This document shows, piece by piece, positions 1,411-55,294 of a stretch of DNA of 64,000 bases. Where the stretch lies: the NCBI RefSeq assembly GCF_009914755.1, contig NC_060937.1. One strand, 5' to 3'. This stretch comes from the human T2T-CHM13v2.0 reference genome, Homo sapiens. The notes beneath the pieces were generated by a model. That model worked only from the letters and a program-made list of their open reading frames with translations, had not been told where the DNA came from and searched no databases. Position numbers and translations under genes: made by a program. Position 1 is the stretch's first letter; the number at the start of each line of letters is the position of its first letter.

Positions 1411-4400
1411 CATTTGAAAATGTAAAACACGAGAGGCTAAAATGAAAACCTAGTATTTAAGAAGTTAATTTTGCAGCCTAGTTTAGAGAAGCTGATAACC
1501 AAGGACTCCTAGTTTTCTGACTTTCAGAGACTCTGTTCTTGTTTCTAAATGCTAAGATTACCTGAGAGAAGCCACTTTGCAATGTGTATGCTTCCCATTG
1601 ACGTTTGTCACCATGCTTCACCTCCAAATTGGGACCATGAGTCCAGCCTTTGCTCTTCTCCACGAACTGAATTATGCATAGGGCTTCCATTCTACTCATC
1701 CCAGGAAGAAACAGTCCCCATAGGATGTCTTCCCTGTGGAACTAATTATGGTTATTAATTGTATGCAAAATTAAACTGTAAAGTGGAGTAAAAGCTTTGT
1801 GCAGAAGCATAATATTTAATTGAGTGCTAATTCTATTGTGATTATTTTAAATAATAGGAGCGTGGTAGTTAAAAAAAATGTATAGCAATGGTTTGCTGGA
1901 CAGCTAAAAAAAACCCTGTAAAAAAAAAACCTGTCCAGGTTTTTTACCTGGACAGGTAAAAAACCCTGCATATGATCACAAATGCCAAGGTATTCAAAAG
2001 ATGGTTTATTTTATTTGTCAGTCAAAATGTATTGCTCAATTTGATTTGCTCTAACATTCTCTCACACTTGATCCTCATGTTGTGTAGGAAATATTTTCAG
2101 ATTACATGCAGAAAACTACCTATGAAGACATCAATCAGGGCAGCAAAACTAGTACTGGATTTTCTAAATGTATCCTAAAGGATAGACCTGAAATTGATGA
2201 GGGAGAATGAAGATGTGGCTTTTTTTGTGTTATATTCATTGTCCTAATATATCTTATAGTGCTTGCAAATTTGATTTTCTTAAACCATACATGGAATACA
2301 GTTGTTTGTCAAGGGTTAAAAAGCATTGCAAGTTCTGAAGTAAACATGTACAAAGGTCATACATAGTATCCATACTGATTCAGGGAGGCTTTGTTGTGAA
2401 AAAGACACTTATATTTTCCTTCAGAGTTGAAACTATTTCTTACAAAATTGAAAGTAGATAATAGATTATAAATCAGTAAATCAGCAAAATGTTACCTTAT
2501 CCAGGGGATGTCTAACATGAGGTCAGTTAAAATGAATAATTACTTTAAAGCTGAGGTGTGGATCATCTTGGTATCCTTCCAAATCCCAGATGTCCTACCT
2601 GAAATCAAGTCCAACCTCTTTAACAACCTCTCCAAAACAATCTTGATTGCTTCGTGTTCATACATCATAAATTGGTTTAAAATAGAGAGGCACAATATCC
2701 AAGATAGTATAGAATCATAAGAAAACTTTTAAAAACTCTTATAAAAATATAAATGCATTAATTTTAGCAATATTTGGAGCAAAATTATGTGTAGTTTTAT
2801 GAATGCATATTTTATTAATACGTGGATTTTTCTATGAAATTATCAGGCTTAGTATGCTTTATTTCAAGCATAAGATAGACAGTAACGAAATGGGTTTACT
2901 TTATTTTTCATTGCAAATATGCCAACAGCTAATCACCTATTTTATTTTTTAAATTGTTTATGTCTTGAGAAAACAAAACTATCTAAAGTTAAGCCTCGCT
3001 GAAAGAGTAAGCATTGTTTATTTGTGTTAACATATACATTATCGAGCATCTATTTGGCATAGAGAATCTTGTCTAATCATTTTGATTTGGTAGTATCTGA
3101 AGTCATTCCCTTTTTTCATATTTATTTGCAATATGAAAATGTTTCCAATTTGAAGATAAGTTAATTTTTTCATTTTTCTGAGAAAATAGAGACAAAAAGA
3201 TGTTTTAATAACTAGCTTATATTGAAAAATTGAGTTTTAGCACGTAACCTTTTCAAGCTAGTTATATTTGAGATAATTAGTAAGGATAAGCAATGTCTAG
3301 AAGCTGAGTAAGTCATAATTAATTTCAGCTATCTCTGGTAAAAAATATTCATGGATGAAAGAAATTTCAGAAAGAATTTTATTTGACTAAAATTAGCAAG
3401 AAAATAATTAATCCAGGAAAATTTTCTTGATAAACCATAGGTAGGTTGATATTCATTAATTTTCTCAAAGATAACAAGGTCACCTTTTCAGCTCTAATAC
3501 CAGCACTCTCTTAGCAATACCTGATCTGCATAGATATTGATTTCTCCTTCAGTTCTCAAATTGGGTTCACTGGTCGAGTTGTAAGGAGCTCCCTCTGCAC
3601 TACTTGTTGCTGATCAAGGTCTGTTTATTAAGAGTGAAGCTGCTTAGCTTTTCCAAGATTCCACCAAGATAATCAGAATCTGGAATATTCAAAACAGTTT
3701 TTTTAAAAATACACACACGTGGAGAAAAAGGCAATTAGAAGAAATCAAAATGCAGTTTGAAATAATCTATAGCAAAAGGAAATAGAATCTTATAGAATAA
3801 TATATTTTTAAAACCTATGTAAACACACAATTATTTGGAAATCTAAGTTATTATTATTATATAACCTTCTTGATAGATGGGAAATAAACTAAATATTATG
3901 GTTAAAGTAACCATAATTTATACATAAAACAAAGAAAATAATTTTTAAGAAACATTCTGCAAAGATATACACACGTGTAAAACTGATGCAAAGCAAGAGA
4001 ATATTATTATATAAAACATTACATCATCAAGATTTATTTGTGCATTTCTACTGCATGCTACTAAACTAATATTTTTCCATCCTAAAAATCCAAATTCTTA
4101 ACTCCTAAGAAATAATATCTCTATATTTCTGTGGCCTTTTTTGCTAGGCCTGAGTTTAAATTTGCCCAAGTGCCACACATGAGCTCAGGTGCTATTTAAT
4201 TCATTCCCCTGCAGGTGAATAGGGTATATATATGTGGACCTTTATAACTTCTACTACTTTGCTGTAGTGCTGAGGGCTGTTTGTGGTGGCTTACAGAATG
4301 AGAAATCAATTAAAATATCTCAACGGGCAGTACAGTGTATTGCGCTGTAATCATGTTATATATATTCATAGACATAGATAAAGTTTTCTCTACTGTTATT

Positions 4401-4784
4401 TTACGTATGTTACTCTAGGAAGTTAGAACTCTCACTCAACGAAGTAGAATAAAAACTCAATCATATAATAACAGAAAAAATTTTTCAATATACAATAGAA
4501 TTTTTTTCCACAAAGCACTGAAGCAACAATAATTAAACGTGTTAATGGTTAACACAGTCGGAGGATCAACATAACAGTATCAACTGTGTTGGATATAGGC
4601 AAAGTTGGGCAAACCAAAATCAATATCACCACTAGAACAAACAAAAAATTAAAATAAAATTCAAGCACAATTTATGGATTTCAACAAGTGTGTTTGATTA
4701 CTAATACCTAGATTAAAACAAAATGAAAGAAATTACAGTGAGATAAAAAGTATTTGTTTCTCATAACAATATCCATAGTAAATA

Positions 4785-4862
4785 GCAAAGTTTCTTAGGC
4801 CTGCAATACACGCTAAAAACAATTGAGTGCATGCATGAATGAATGAATGAAAGAATGAATAC
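4785..4862 (+). mobile_element. L2 3' end fragment with (GAAT)n tail
   Basis: 'ggcctgcaatacacgctaaaaac...gaatgaatgaatgaa' resembles the L2 terminus. Confidence 0.4.
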
Positions 4863-5314
4863 ATCCTTATTCTTTGCTTTGTCTTAAATTACATTTGGTG
4901 CAATTGTAGAAAATACAGTAATTTCTTAATGGAAGAACATGCAGCAGTTTGGTGATTCAACTAACTACAATGGGATAAGGTTATTGTGGTCCTCTGTAAT
5001 TTAGATTTAAAAGGAATAGTTTTCTGAGAGATGTCAGATGAAAAGGCTATCCCCAAAAAAGAAACCATTGTTTCTTTGGCATTTTCTGCTCTCCCACTGC
5101 AAAGCCTCTCTTCTGCAAATGTGGAAAATATATAAAAATGATTGTCTAACAGGGAGGCTATGATTACTTTGCTTAAAATCATATTTTGTTGGATACATCT
5201 GTGTAAGAATTTTCCAGTTAAAAATGAAGTTATATTGAATGTGGATTTAATGTTAACGACCCTTAGATTTTCCTATTTATATGTTTCAAACTAATAAGAG
5301 CTAACCCAAAAATA

Positions 5315-5840
5315 GTGTGATAGGAAAAATAATGGCCTCCCAAAAATATCTATGTCCTAATCTCCAGAATTTGTGACTACATTCTGTTACATGACAAGGG
5401 GCGATTAAGGTTACAGCTGGAATTAAGTTTGCTAATTTGATTACTTTCAAATCAGAAGATTATCCTTGGCTAACCCCAGTGCAACCAATGTAATCATAGG
5501 ATCCTTACATGGGGAAGAAGGGGTAGAATTGTCAGAATCAGAGAGATGGGAGAGAAGGAGGCTCAGAGAAAATGACAACTTAATCTTGCTGGTGTTGAAG
5601 ATAAAGGAATGTGGCCACAAGATAAGGACTAGGGGTGGCCTGTAGAAGCTGAAAAGGCAAGTAAATGAATTCTACCCTAAAGCCTCTAGAAAGTAATGCA
5701 GCCGTACAGGTATGGTGAGTTTAGGCAGTAAGTCCTAGTTCAGACTCCTGACATAGCAAACTGAAAGATAACAAATTTGGGTTATTTTAAGCCACTATGT
5801 TTATAGTAATTTGTTACAGCAGCAATAGAAAACTAATAAC
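5315..5840 (+). mobile_element. MLT1 (MLT1D-like) MaLR solo LTR
   Basis: Start 'tgtgataggaaaaataatggcctcccaaaa', end 'gtaatttgttacagcagcaatagaaaactaata' typical of MLT1. Confidence 0.8.
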
Positions 5841-6599
5841 CTGGGTAGTTTATTTAATCTTAATAGTAACTATAAATGGTGAATGCAGTTAACAAATGTC
5901 ACATTGTGATGGGAACATATTGATGCAACTGAATTTTATTTTAATATTCTGAATGAAAAATTATGAATTTCCAACCATCAATAAAATGTATGTACATACC
6001 TCCAAAGTGATCAGTAAATTCCCGCTCTGACAATAATCCCCTATGTCTCAACATATAATGTTTACTTAAATGCAATGAAGAAAAATACCTAAGACAGCTG
6101 AGCTACAGAAAGAAAAATAGAACTGTGTATGACAGAAAAATTCCTACAAGAACTGGAGATAAGATTTTAAGGTCACAGATCTCTGAGCTATAATTGTGCA
6201 GTGGTTGTGCTGGTTTGCTTCCCATGGCCAGAAACAGGATTAAAGTTAGGCTCACTGCATGAAGCCTGGATCCGATGGAGACCCACAGAAACCCTCCCTC
6301 ATGAAAAGAGACTGAGAAAACTCCTGACACATACCACTTTTTTCAAATGCCAACATGTGCTTTGGTCGACTATATGCTAGTGACAAAGAAAGACACAGAC
6401 ACAAAACGTTTAAATCTAAACCATTCAGTTTCTCTGAGGATGGATCTCCATTTCCCAATTCATCTTTGCATAGTGAACCTTAACATTAATTATGAGGCAT
6501 CTTTCTGAGTCTGAGTCCTGAAGTGCTAAGTGAAGGCAAAAATACAGCATCAACAACAACTATTAAAAAGCCTTGACAGTATTAGTAAAGGAATGCTTT

Positions 6600-45143: not shown

Positions 45144-45862
45144 AAAAATTTATAATGGGCTGAGGAGTGCTTTACTTCCAACTATGTGGTCAATTTTGGA
45201 ATAAGTGCGATGTGGTGCTGAGAAGAACACTCCTCAGCAAATGTAAAAGAACATAAATTGTAACAAACTGTCTCTCAGACCACAGGGCAATCAAACTAGA
45301 ACTCCGGATTAAGTAACTCACTCGAAACCACTCAACTACATGGAAACTGCACAATCTGCTCCTGAATGAATTACTGGGTACATAACGAAATGAAGGCAGA
45401 AATAAAGATGTTCTTTGAAACCCATAAGAACAAAGACACAACATACCAGAATCTCTGGGACACATTCAAAGCAGTGTATAGAGGGAAAATTATAACACTA
45501 AATGCCAACAAGAGAAAGCAGGACAGATCTAAAATTGACACCCTAACATCACAATTAAAAGAACTAGAGAAGCAAGAGCAAACACATTCAAAAGCTAGCA
45601 GAAAGCAAGAAATAACTAAGATCAGAGCAGAACTGAAGGAGATAGAGACACAAAAAGCCATTCAAAAAAATCAATGAATCTGGGAGCTGGTTTTTTGAAA
45701 AGATCAACAAAATTGATAGACTAGCAAAACTAATAAAGAAGAAAAGAGAGAAGAATCAAATAGACGCAATAAAAAATGATAAAGGGGATATCACCACCGA
45801 TCCCACAGAAATACAAACTACCATCGGAGAATACTATAAACACCTCTAGGCAAATAAACTAG

Positions 45863-46141
<279 letters not shown>

Positions 46142-46155
46142 TAGATGCAGAATAG

Positions 46156-46557
<402 letters not shown>

Positions 46558-46583
46558 TGACAAGCAGTCTTATACATCAATAA

Positions 46584-46757
<174 letters not shown>

Positions 46758-46760
46758 TAG

Positions 46761-47381
<621 letters not shown>

Positions 47382-48025
47382 TAATTAAACTAAAGAGCTT
47401 CTGCACAGCAAAAGAAACTACCATTAGAGTGAACAGGCAACCTATAGAATGGGAGAAATTTTTGCAATCTGCTAATCTGACAAAGGGCTAATATCCAGAA
47501 TCTACAAAGAACTCAAACAAATTTACAAGAAAAAAACAAACAACCCCATCAAAAAGTGGGCAAAGAATATGAACAGACACTTCTCAAAAGAAGACATTGA
47601 TGCTGCCAACAGACACATGAAAACATGCTCATCATCACTGGCCATCAGAGAAATGCAAATCAAAACCACAGTGAGATACCATCTCACACCAGTTAGAATG
47701 GTGGTCATTAAAAAGTCAGGAAACAACAAGTGCTGGAGAGGATGTGGAGAAATAGGAACGCTTTTACATTGTTGGTGGGACTGTAAACTAGTTCAACCAT
47801 TGTGGAGGACAGTGTGGCGATTCCTCAAGGATCTAGAACTAGAAATACCATTTGACCCAGCCATCCCATTACTGGGTATATATCCAAAGGATTATAAATC
47901 ATGCTGCTATAAAGACACATGCAAATGTATGTTTACTGTGGCACTATTCACAATAGCAAAGACTTGGAACCAACCCAAATGTCCATCAATGATAGACTGG
48001 ATTAAGAAAATGTGGATTTTGGTCA

Positions 48026-48919
48026 CAAGATGGCCGAATAGGAACAGCTCCGGTCTACAGCTCCCAGCGTGAGCTACGCAGAAGACGGGTGATTTCTGCA
48101 TTTCCATCTGAGGTACCGGGTTCATCTCACTAGGGAGTGCCAGACAGTGGGCGCAGGCCAGTGGGTGCACGCACCGTGCGCGAGCCGAAGCAGGGCGAGG
48201 CATTGCCTCACCTGGGAAGCGCAAGGGGTCAGGGAGTTCCCTTTCTGAGTCAAAGAAAGGGGTGAGGGACACACCTGGAAAATCGGGTCACTCCCACCCG
48301 AATATTGCGTTTTTCAAACGGGCTTAAAAACGGCGCACCACGAGACTATATCCCACACCTGGCTCGGAGGGTCCTACGCCCATGGAATCTCGCTGATTGC
48401 TAGCACAGCAGTCTGAGATCAAACTGCAAGGCGGCAGCTAGGCTGGGGGAGGGGCGCCCGCCATTGCCCAGGCTTGCTTAGGTAAACAAAGCAGCAGGGA
48501 AGCTCGATCTGGGTGGAGCCCACCACAGTTCAAGGAGGCCTGCCTGACACTGTAGGCTCCATCTCTGGGGGCAGGGCACAGACAAACAAAAAGACAGCAG
48601 TAACCTCTGCAGACTTAAATGTCCCTGTCTGACAGCTTTGAAGAGAGCAGTGGTTCTCCCAGCGCGCAGCTGGAGATCTGAGAACCGGCAGACTGCCTCC
48701 TCAAGTGAGTCCCTGACTCCTGACCCCCGAGCAGCCTAACTGGGAGGCACCCCGCAGCAGGGGCACACTGACACCTCACAAGGCAGGGTATTCCAACAGA
48801 CCTGCAGCTGAGGGTCCTGTCTGTTAGAAGGAAAACTAACAAACAGAAAGGACATCCACACCGAAAACCCATCTGTACATCACCATCATCAAAGACCAAA
48901 AGTAGATAAAACCACAAAG
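48026..48919 (+). promoter_or_regulatory. L1 5' UTR internal promoter (CpG-rich, YY1 motif caagatggcc; antisense promoter region)
   Basis: Longest CpG-dense stretch in the window; length matches the short form lacking the 129-bp ZNF93-bound segment. Confidence 0.85.
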
Positions 48920-49936
48920 ATGGGGAAAAAACAGAACAGAAAAACTGGAAACTCTAAAACGCAGAGTGCCTCTCCTCCTCCAAAGGAACGCAGTTCCTCA
49001 CCAGCAACGGAACAAAGCTGGACAGAGAACGACTTTGACGAGCTGAGAGAAGAAGGCTTCAGATGATCAAATTACTCTGAGCTACGAGAGGACATTCAAA
49101 CCAAAGGCAAAGAAGTTGAAAACTTTGAAAAAAATTTAGAAGAATGTATAACTAGAATAACCAATACACAGAAGTGCTTAAAGGAGCTGATGGAGCTGAA
49201 AACCAAGGCTCGAGAACTACGTGAAGAATGCAGAAGCCTCAGGAGCCGATGCGATCAACTGGAAGAAAGGGTATCAGCAATGGAAGATGAAATGAATGAA
49301 ATGAAGCGAGAAGGGAAGTTTAGAGAAAAAAGAATAAAAAGAAATGAGCAAAGCCTCCAAGAAATATGGGACTATGTGAAAAGACCAAATCTACGTCTGA
49401 TTGGTGTACCTGAAAGTGATGGGGAGAATGGAACCAAGTTGGAAAACACTCTGCAGGATATTATCCAGGAGAACTTCCCCAATCTAGCAAGGCAGGCCAA
49501 CGTTCAGATTCAGGAAATACAGAGAACGCCACAAAGATACTCCTCAAGAAGAGCAACTCCAAGACACATAATTGTCAGATTCACCAAAGTTGAAATGAAG
49601 GAAAAAATGTTAAGGGCAGCCAGAGAGAAAGGTCGGGTTACCCTCAAAGGGAAGCCCATCAGACTAACAGCGGATCTCTCAGCAGAAACCCTACAAGCCA
49701 GAAGAGAGTGGGGGCCAATATTCAACATTCTTAAAGAAAAGAATTTTCAACCCAGAATTTCATATCCAGCCAAACTAAGCTTCATAAGTGAAGGAGAAAT
49801 AAAATACTTTACAGACAAGCAAATGCTGACCGATTTTGTCACCACCAGGCCTGCCCTAAAAGAGCTCCTGAAGGAAGCGCTAAACATGGAAAGGAACAAC
49901 CGGTACCAGCTGCTGCAAAATCATGCCAAAATGTAA
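48920..49936 (+). pseudogene. L1 ORF1p, inactivated by R49* (CGA>TGA at 49064-49066)
   Basis: ATG 48920 (MGKKQ), TAA 49934-49936, 1017 nt with one in-frame stop; 248-aa downstream ORF in track. Confidence 0.93.
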
Positions 49937-49999
49937 AGACCATCGAGACTAGGAAGAAACTGCGTCAACTAACGAGCAAAATCACCAGCTAACATCATA

Positions 50000-53824
<3,825 letters not shown>

Positions 53825-54072
53825 ACAATGAGATCACATGGACACAGGAAGGGGAATATCACACTCTGGGGACTGTTGTGGGGTGGGGGGAGGGGGGAGG
53901 GATAGCATTGGGAGATATACCTAATGCTAGATGACGAGTTAGTGGGTGCAGCGCACCAGCACGGCACATGTATACATATGTAACTAACCTGCACAATGTG
54001 CACATGTACCCTAAAACTTAAAGTATAATAAAAAAAAAAAAAAGAAAAGCAAAAGTTAAAAAAAAAAAAAAA

Positions 54073-54466
54073 GAAAAAGTATACATTTTGAAGAACTGAA
54101 AAACCATTGTAACCACACTGTGATGGTAAAGTCCTGTAAAATCGGAATTATTTATACTACAGACTATGCTGCCTATTGTATTGACAGCTGTGCATTATCC
54201 TAGAGTCTCTTTGTGTGAATATGGTTAACTTTACACATCTAAAAGATAATATATTTTTTAAAGAATATATAAAAAAAAGAGAAAAGTGTCATTGCCAACC
54301 TTCAATAATTATTGTAACTATATATTCCTACTAAGAAATTTTTCACTAAAACTTGAATTGTTTCATATTTATGAGCTTATTGATCCAGCCACCTGGAGTT
54401 CTATTACTACTTATAATAATGATTTATTATATTTTTAAGAAAAATAAATAGAGCCACTAAGACCGC
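54073..54466 (+). other. L1 3'-transduced unique sequence
   Basis: Non-L1 DNA between L1 poly(A) and a second poly(A) (from 54467), AATAAA at 54443-54448, inside the TSDs. Confidence 0.92.
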
Positions 54467-54872
54467 AAAAAAAAAAAAAAAAAGAAAATGTGGCACATAT
54501 ACACCATGGAATACTATGCAGCCATAAAAAATGAGTTCATGTCCTTTGTAGTGACATGGATGAAGCTGGAAACCATCATTCTCAGCAAACTATTGCAAGG
54601 ACAAAAAACAAAACACCGCATGTTCTCACTCATAGGTGGGAATTGAACAATGAGAACACTTGGACACAGGAAGGGGAACGTAACACACTGGGGCCTGTCG
54701 TGGGTTGGGGGGAGGGGAGAGGGATAGCATTAGGAGATATACCTAATGTAAATGATGAGTTAATGGGTGCAGCACACCAGCATGGCACATGTGTACATAT
54801 GTAACAAACCTGCATGTTGTGCACATGTACCCTAGAACTTAAAGTATAATAATAATAAAAAATTTATAATGG

Positions 54873-55177
<305 letters not shown>

Positions 55178-55294
55178 TTAAAAATTTAAAATAGAAAATT
55201 TAACAAAGAACAGTAGAGGTAAATAGAAAACAAATAGTGAAATGGTAGATGAAAATGAAAACATATTCATAATTGCATAAAACTTCAAAGGCCT

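What the first reader, a model, noticed from the sequence alone, without database searches (positions are those of the whole stretch)
54030..54493. ~390-bp L1 3' transduction enclosed by the TSDs
Seen: after the inner L1 3' UTR and poly(A) come ~390 bp of non-L1 DNA (54073-54466), AATAAA at 54443-54448, a second poly(A), and only then the 3' TSD aagaaaatgtgg, after which the outer L1 resumes exactly where it stopped at 48015. Known: L1 reads through its weak poly(A) signal and carries flanking DNA to new sites. Inference: this DNA came from another locus and identifies the source L1PA2 element and any sibling insertions.
Basis: partly seen in the sequence, partly recalled or inferred. Interest (0 to 1): 0.8.

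Follow-up and report, generated by a model that had tools for sequence, protein, structure and literature searches.

The report
Two-step L1 3' transduction, donors lost
A dead full-length L1 nested in an older L1 carries two stacked pieces of foreign DNA, from chr11 and chr18, which record two earlier stops of its lineage; this is a known kind of event and has no evident function.

Summary
A full-length L1 (48027-54032) sits inside an older L1 between perfect 12-bp duplications (48004-48015 and 54482-54493). About 390 bp of non-L1 DNA and a second poly(A) lie inside the duplications.

The "one other locus" reading is only half right. The tail has two parts:
- 54073-54269 matches chr11:27228340-27228536 (194/197).
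- 54279-54467 matches chr18:65495654-65495842 (186/189).

Each part follows an A-run and starts at a donor sequence that looks like an L1 endonuclease site. Each ends 16-19 nt after a poly(A) hexamer. This is the signature of a serial 3' transduction, chr11 to chr18 to chr13, a kind already in print (PMC4859970).

Both donor sites are empty in CHM13, with no L1 adjoining within 10 kb upstream. Each segment has exactly two copies in the genome, so there are no siblings and no surviving source element.

The element is L1PA2 or older, has broken ORFs, and its tags differ from their donors by about 1.6%.

Verdict: an ordinary new instance of a known kind. Interest is low.

The parts
45230..48015 (+). 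Outer, older, 5'-truncated L1, left part
   Evidence: aligns to inner-L1 positions 2619-5653 at 92-94% identity, with a ~245-bp gap relative to the inner copy.
48004..48015 (+). 5' target-site duplication aagaaaatgtgg
   Evidence: The preceding bases are tt, giving TT|AAGA, which is L1-endonuclease-like.
48016..48026 (+). 11-nt leader attttggtcac between the TSD and the L1, in place of roughly the first 13 nt of a full-length L1
   Evidence: Leader plus L1 start is unique in the genome at <=1 mismatch. No template was found in the window or at the donor loci.
48027..54032 (+). Inner full-length L1 (L1PA2 or older) with both ORFs broken
   Evidence: ORF1 has an in-frame stop at 49064-49066, and ORF2 is in three frame pieces (49973-50305, 50409-53606, 53510-53821); the ORF1 piece matches human L1 ORF1p 2YKO at E=7e-141. 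GAG is at 53936-53938.
54030..54072 (+). L1's own tail: A14 (54030-54043), 14-nt gaaaagcaaaagtt (54044-54057), A15 (54058-54072)
   Evidence: The 14-mer occurs 160 times in the genome, so its origin cannot be placed.
54073..54269 (+). Transduced segment A, copied from chr11 (G000:C11:27228340-27228536, +)
   Evidence: 194/197 identical. The donor continues as unique DNA on both sides. There are 2 copies in the genome. AATATA at 54248-54253 lies 16 nt before the segment end.
54270..54278 (+). Internal tail t+A8, the remnant poly(A) of the intermediate insertion
   Evidence: this stretch is absent from both the chr11 and the chr18 sequence.
54279..54467 (+). Transduced segment B, copied from chr18 (G000:C18:65495654-65495842, +); the start is good to about 3 nt
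   Evidence: 186/189 identical. The donor continues past gaccgca with no A-run. There are 2 copies in the genome. AATAAA at 54443-54448 lies 19 nt before the end.
54467..54481 (+). Terminal poly(A) of the chr13 insertion
54482..54493 (+). 3' target-site duplication aagaaaatgtgg
54494..54862 (+). Outer L1, right part, through to its 3' end
   Evidence: window 54482-54862 aligns to inner-L1 positions 5642-6026 at 90% identity.

Best explanation
This is one retrotransposition event. It inserted a full-length L1 RNA whose 3' end already carried two stacked read-through tags, that is, a serial 3' transduction.

Step 1 (inferred). A full-length L1 sat at chr11:27228340, inserted at ggtt|gaaaaag. The site lies in sense orientation between two exons of a GBBH-like_N/TauD gene. 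Transcription ran past the L1 poly(A) signal and was cleaved 197 nt downstream, after a weak AATATA.

Step 2 (inferred). That RNA inserted at chr18:65495654 (tcat|gaaaaaag). The new copy was again read through, and its RNA was cleaved 189 nt downstream at a canonical AATAAA with a CA cleavage site.

Step 3 (shown). This RNA was inserted by target-primed reverse transcription at TT|AAGA inside an older L1 on chr13, making a 12-bp TSD.

Both intermediate L1s are absent from CHM13. They presumably never fixed. The chr13 copy has since decayed: it has stops and frameshifts, and its tags differ from their donors by about 1.6%. No function is implied. It lies in introns of two minus-strand lncRNA genes.
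For: (1) A single TSD pair encloses everything, and the outer L1 is exactly continuous across it.

(2) The genome search gave 3 of 3 scored candidates: self, chr11 for query 1-197 and chr18 for query 187-394. On re-alignment the matches are 194/197 and 186/189.

(3) Both donors are unique DNA that continues on both sides. The chr13 copies are bounded by A-runs, so the direction is donor to chr13.

(4) Each segment starts at its donor with a purine run, GAAAAAG or GAAAAAAG, preceded by T, as expected if it begins with the donor's 3' TSD at an L1 endonuclease site. Such a start (T followed by 7 purines with at least 5 A) occurs at 0.22% of window positions, so about 5e-6 for both.

(5) Each segment ends 16-19 nt after a poly(A) hexamer (AATATA for A, AATAAA for B). 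T/GT-rich sequence follows the cleavage point at the donor.

(6) The order, with the chr11 tag inner and the chr18 tag outer, and the equal divergence (1.5% and 1.6%) fit two steps close together in time.

(7) The anatomy matches the published description: two A stretches, the donor 3' TSD inside the transduced sequence, and serial 3' transductions reported (PMC4859970, passages).
Against: Neither predicted progenitor was seen. The chr11 and chr18 sites are empty in CHM13, and only old L1 fragments lie at least 5.8 kb and at least 2.7 kb upstream. The predicted intermediate, an L1 plus segment A at chr18, is absent, because segment A has only 2 copies. Steps 1 and 2 therefore rest on junction anatomy alone.

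Segment A has only a variant hexamer. The chr18 site AT|GAAA departs from TT|AAAA at two positions. Segment A lies inside a gene in sense orientation, so a host-gene transcript covering it exists independently of any L1. No ape or other human genome could be examined.
Confidence: 0.85

Rival explanations
1. A chimera made in one TPRT event by template jumping or RNA ligation. Under this reading ORF2p began on a polyadenylated chr18 transcript, jumped to the poly(A) end of a chr11 transcript (or an L1-chr11 read-through RNA), and then onto the L1 RNA. No L1 would ever have sat at chr18, or perhaps at chr11.
For: Both donor sites are empty, and no intermediate element exists in CHM13. Segment A lies in sense orientation inside a gene, so it is transcribed without an L1. 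L1 chimeras with cellular RNAs are documented (PMC11838501 and PMC2104539; passages for the first, listing and abstract only for the second). A T-rich cDNA end made at an A-rich stretch could reanneal on another poly(A) tail.
Against: Described L1 chimeras carry the foreign part 5' of a usually truncated L1 3' end. Here a full-length L1 is 5' and the foreign parts are 3'. Both segment starts include a G after the A-run, so the junction is not inside the A stretch as microhomology-driven jumping would predict. This reading needs two independent cryptic polyadenylated transcripts, one of them intronic with only AATATA, plus two jumps. EN-like starts at both donors have a chance probability of about 5e-6.
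Confidence: 0.08
2. Separate successive insertions at the same chr13 spot: a retrocopy of the chr18 piece first, then the L1 with its chr11 tag just upstream.
For: Nested insertions are common here, and this very L1 is nested in another L1.
Against: There is only one TSD pair, which encloses everything. No second duplication flanks segment B or the L1+A part. The bases at 54279-54290 are the chr18 sequence with 1 mismatch, not a copy of the chr13 target. The outer L1 is continuous, with exactly one 12-nt overlap.
Confidence: 0.03
3. A single transduction from one donor locus where the chr11-like and chr18-like sequences lay side by side. Such a locus would be missing from CHM13 or rearranged since.
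For: The search heuristics give lower bounds only (note).
Against: The t+A8 tract between the two segments is in neither donor. Exact-pattern scans at <=3 mismatches find only donor plus chr13 for each segment. Each donor's sequence diverges from the chr13 copy exactly at the junction.
Confidence: 0.02

Closest known systems
L1 3' transduction (read-through of the weak L1 poly(A) signal), as summarised in Hancks & Kazazian 2016, PMC4859970
   Same: L1 3' end, internal A-run, unique DNA beginning with the donor's 3' TSD, a downstream poly(A) signal, a terminal poly(A) and one TSD pair.
   Different: There are two tags from two chromosomes rather than one. No L1 is present at either donor in this genome.
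Serial 3' transductions and L1 transduction families (PMC4859970 passage; PMC6425141)
   Same: Stacked tags record the successive genomic stops of one L1 lineage, with the inner tag the older.
   Different: Published families are mostly young L1-Ta elements whose progenitors and siblings are still present or polymorphic. Here the element is L1PA2 or older and dead, and it is the only carrier of either tag in CHM13.
L1 chimeric retrocopies (U6/L1, Alu/L1, mRNA/L1; PMC11838501)
   Same: Several unrelated sequences are joined inside a single TSD pair.
   Different: In those chimeras the foreign part lies 5' of a truncated L1 3' end and is joined without a donor TSD. Here the foreign parts lie 3' of a full-length L1, and each follows an A-run.

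Membership tests
L1 3' transduction | L1 3' end and own A-run, then non-L1 DNA, then a second poly(A), all inside one TSD pair | tested here: met
   (exact 12-nt overlap of the outer L1 halves).
L1 3' transduction | The non-L1 DNA has a parental copy elsewhere that continues past the cleavage point without an A tail | tested here: met
   chr11 at 194/197 and chr18 at 186/189, both continuing as unique DNA.
L1 3' transduction | A poly(A) signal 10-30 nt before the end of the transduced DNA | tested here: met
   AATAAA at 54443-54448 for segment B. Segment A has only the variant AATATA at 54248-54253; its status as a usable variant signal is recalled, not tested.
L1 3' transduction | The transduced DNA begins with the donor's 3' TSD at an endonuclease-like site | tested here: met
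   ggtt|gaaaaag and tcat|gaaaaaag; such starts occur at 0.22% of positions. TSD lengths are unknowable without a filled allele.
L1 3' transduction | A source L1 directly upstream of the parental copy | tested here: not met
   both sites are empty in CHM13. This is expected if the progenitors never fixed. Other genomes were not testable.
Serial 3' transduction | Two or more tags from different loci in tandem, each preceded by an A-run | tested here: met
   A15 + chr11 tag, then t+A8 + chr18 tag.
Serial 3' transduction | An intermediate element (L1 + first tag) at the second donor locus | tested here: not met
   segment A occurs only at chr11 and chr13 in CHM13. Apes and other human genomes are not available in these tools.
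L1 chimeric retrocopy (U6/L1 type) | The foreign RNA copy lies 5' of an L1 3' segment | tested here: not met
   against the passages: the foreign DNA is 3' of a full-length L1.
L1PA2 subfamily | GAG rather than ACA/ACG at the diagnostic 3' UTR trinucleotide | tested here: met
   53936-53938 GAG; PMC7026601: GAG indicates L1PA2 or older.
L1PA2 subfamily | Characters that separate L1PA2 from L1PA3 and older subfamilies | not tested
   No subfamily reference sequences are held. The only indirect support is an ORF1p piece that is a near-identical match to human L1 ORF1p and the 1.55% tag divergence.

The most novel reading that the evidence does not exclude
The three-part tail was not built by two rounds of read-through. 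Instead ORF2p jumped between, or a ligase joined, three separate polyadenylated RNAs in one event. That would give a chimera with a full-length L1 at the 5' end, the reverse of the U6/L1 arrangement, and neither chr11 nor chr18 would ever have hosted an L1.
Probability: 0.07. Interest if true: 0.5.

Novelty: new member of a known kind. Interest (0 to 1): 0.2.

Why it matters
The two tags act as a barcode for an extinct L1 lineage. They show that a full-length, competent element hopped chr11 to chr18 to chr13 within a short time, and that both active intermediates were lost while a dead descendant fixed. This fits the accepted picture of short-lived L1 source elements and adds one more example. 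The first ghost progenitor would have sat in sense orientation inside a gene, a position recalled to be selected against. The tags also give exact sites to check in ape and pangenome assemblies. Nothing here suggests a cellular function.

Tried and rejected
- **Siblings or progenitors found through the tags.** There are none. Each tag has 2 copies in CHM13.
- **Relatives found through the odd 5' leader.** The 24-nt leader plus L1 start is unique at <=1 mismatch. In the window the leader has only 1-mismatch chance hits: 6 matches against 2.3 expected, and 3 of 100 shuffles reach 6. At the donor loci the best match is a 10-mer on the opposite strand several kb from the chr18 site (about 3.6 kb by my conversion of the reverse-strand coordinate), which I judge to be chance. 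A 5' transduction from chr18 or chr11 is therefore not supported.
- **The 14-nt stretch in the first A-run as a third, older micro-transduction.** The 20-mer with flanking A's hits chr5 and chr6, neither next to an L1. The bare 14-mer occurs 160 times against 32 for the reversed control. The origin cannot be placed, and this may be simple tail decay.
- **An L1 near the donors that could feed a spliced read-through.** Only old fragments lie at least 2.7 kb away, and neither segment start follows an AG acceptor.
- **Structured RNA in 53900-54600.** There were 0 Rfam matches at E<=1.
- **Szak et al. 2003.** The paper could not be fetched.
- **Literature searches.** Searches returned nothing useful. 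No search was made for this particular locus, so I cannot say whether it is already catalogued.

Full report
**1. Observation**

In window order it is:

- The outer L1 runs to ...gattaagaaaatgtgg at 48015.
- 11 nt follow (attttggtcac, 48016-48026).
- An L1 5' end follows from 48027 (aagatggccgaatagg...).
- The inner L1 ends with AATAAA at 54027-54032.
- Then come A14 (54030-54043), gaaaagcaaaagtt (54044-54057) and A15 (54058-54072).
- Non-L1 DNA spans 54073-54467 and carries AATAAA at 54443-54448.
- A poly(A) runs to 54481.
- aagaaaatgtgg is repeated at 54482-54493, and the outer L1 goes on after it.

I aligned the two outer halves separately to the inner L1. The left half ends at inner position 5653 and the right half starts at 5642. 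That is a 12-nt overlap equal to the TSD, so the host L1 is exactly continuous. Outer and inner copies are 90-94% identical, so the host is clearly the older element.

**2. What the ~390 bp is**

A search of the window's own assembly with 54073-54466 scored 3 of 3 candidates:

- the window itself;
- C11:27228340-27228536 for query 1-197 (98% identity);
- C18:65495634-65495841 for query 187-394 (96% identity).

The tail is therefore composite. On re-alignment, segment A (54073-54269) matches chr11 at 194/197. The chr18 BLAST match is 200/209, but its first 20 columns are a 14/20 AT-rich over-extension. The real homology is 54279-54467 at 186/189.

Between the two segments lie t+A8 (54270-54278), which are in neither donor. 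Exact-pattern scans with up to 3 mismatches find each segment exactly twice in the genome, once at the donor and once at chr13. The reversed controls give 0.

**3. Donor anatomy**

At chr11 the sequence reads ...gagctatggtt|gaaaaagtatacatttt... It continues past the segment end as ...aaagaatata|aatctttctgtattttt....

At chr18 it reads ...aaaatcat|gaaaaaagtgtcattgcc... It continues past ...gaccgca|tccttggttc....

Both donors are therefore ordinary unique DNA. Only the chr13 copies are bounded by A-runs, which fixes the direction as donor to chr13.

Both segments start at T|G-A(5-6)-G. This is what is expected if each begins with the 3' TSD of an L1 inserted at an endonuclease-type site. That TT|GAAA and TT|AAGA are accepted variants of TT|AAAA is recalled from Jurka 1997, which I did not see. 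A start defined as T followed by 7 purines with at least 5 A occurs at 0.22% of positions in the window on both strands, so about 5e-6 for two independent starts.

Segment A ends 16 nt after AATATA (54248-54253). Segment B ends 19 nt after AATAAA, at a CA dinucleotide. That AATATA is a weak but usable variant signal is recalled, not tested.

**4. Mechanism**

The anatomy matches the published description of 3' transductions. [quoted passage not shown]

The inner tag is the older, so the lineage went chr11, then chr18, then chr13. The last step is shown by the TSDs. The two earlier steps are inferred from the junctions.

**5. The donors are empty**

Neither donor site has an L1 beside it. The 10 kb upstream of each hold only old L1 fragments:

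- chr11: pieces at 84-89% identity, the nearest ending about 5.8 kb away and lying in antisense orientation.
- chr18: one piece at 73% identity, about 2.7 kb away.

The predicted intermediate, an L1 plus segment A at chr18, does not exist in CHM13.

The tags therefore point to two "ghost" progenitors, not to a surviving source, and there are no siblings.

It is also the main weakness of my reading. It leaves room for a one-event chimera made by template jumps or RNA ligation. I rate that at about 8% for four reasons:

- Described L1 chimeras carry the foreign part 5' of a truncated L1 (PMC11838501, passages).
- Both junctions keep a G after the A-run.
- Two independent cryptic polyadenylated transcripts would be needed.
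- EN-like starts at both donors would have to be coincidence.

**6. Context of donor A**

Exons matching GBBH-like_N (C11:27195964-27196122, +) and TauD (C11:27260141-27260335, +) bracket donor A on the same strand. The first ghost L1 would therefore have been intronic and in sense orientation in that gene. The gene is BBOX1 by recall; no tool named it.

Sense-oriented full-length intronic L1s are recalled to be disfavoured, which would fit its loss. The same fact gives the chimera rival a ready transcript.

**7. The element itself**

- **Subfamily.** The 3' UTR trinucleotide is GAG (53936-53938), "indicative of L1PA2 or older" (PMC7026601, passage).
- **ORF1.** It has an in-frame stop at 49064-49066. 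The remaining 248-aa piece matches human L1 ORF1p 2YKO at E=7e-141, with a handful of differences over the 230 aligned columns, the last few of which are the crystal construct's His tag.
- **ORF2.** It lies in three frame pieces.
- **Status.** The copy is dead.
- **Age.** Tag-to-donor divergence is 6/386 = 1.55% (Poisson 95% interval 0.57-3.4%), equal for both tags. This is of the order of the human-African-ape divergences (recalled values). The interval is too wide to say whether the insert is human-specific.

**8. Loose ends**

- **The 11-nt leader (48016-48026).** It replaces roughly the first 13 nt of the L1. Together with the L1 start it is unique in the genome, and it has no template nearby. 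Short 10-18-nt 5' transductions from initiation upstream of +1 are documented (PMC6425141, passages). It could be such a relic or untemplated filler, and this is undecided.
- **The 14-nt stretch in the first A-run.** It might be an even older micro-transduction, but it has 160 genomic copies and cannot be traced.
- **Structured RNA.** No Rfam family matches 53900-54600.

**9. Verdict**

The feature is a two-step L1 3' transduction, a known kind, whose donors are both empty in this genome. It is a new instance and is useful as a lineage barcode with precise sites to check in apes. It is not surprising to a specialist and carries no sign of function.

Noticed in passing
window 48016-48026: An 11-nt leader attttggtcac sits between the 5' TSD and the L1, which starts at aagatggcc. 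It replaces roughly the first 13 nt of a full-length L1. It may be untemplated filler or a short 5' transduction.
   Followed up: partly
window 54044-54057: A 14-nt stretch gaaaagcaaaagtt splits the L1's own A-run into A14 and A15. It could be a very short older transduction or tail decay. With 160 genomic copies it cannot be traced.
   Followed up: yes
L002 / G000:C11:27228340-27228536: Donor A lies on the + strand between a GBBH-like_N exon (27195964-27196122) and a TauD exon (27260141-27260335). It is probably in an intron of BBOX1 (gene name recalled), in sense orientation.
   Followed up: partly
window ~46137: The outer L1 lacks about 245 bp relative to the inner L1 (inner positions 3528-3773), which is an internal deletion in the host element.
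   Followed up: no
window 54084-54085 (tcgg) vs L002 1572-1573 (tcat): Two of the three segment A mismatches are adjacent and involve a CpG in the chr13 copy. This may be one event or CpG decay at the donor.
   Followed up: no
window ~54868-55211: An Alu-like sequence (ggccagacatgttggctcac...) follows directly after the outer L1's short A-rich 3' end. It was recognised by eye and recall only, and the hub masks 54913-55211.
   Followed up: no
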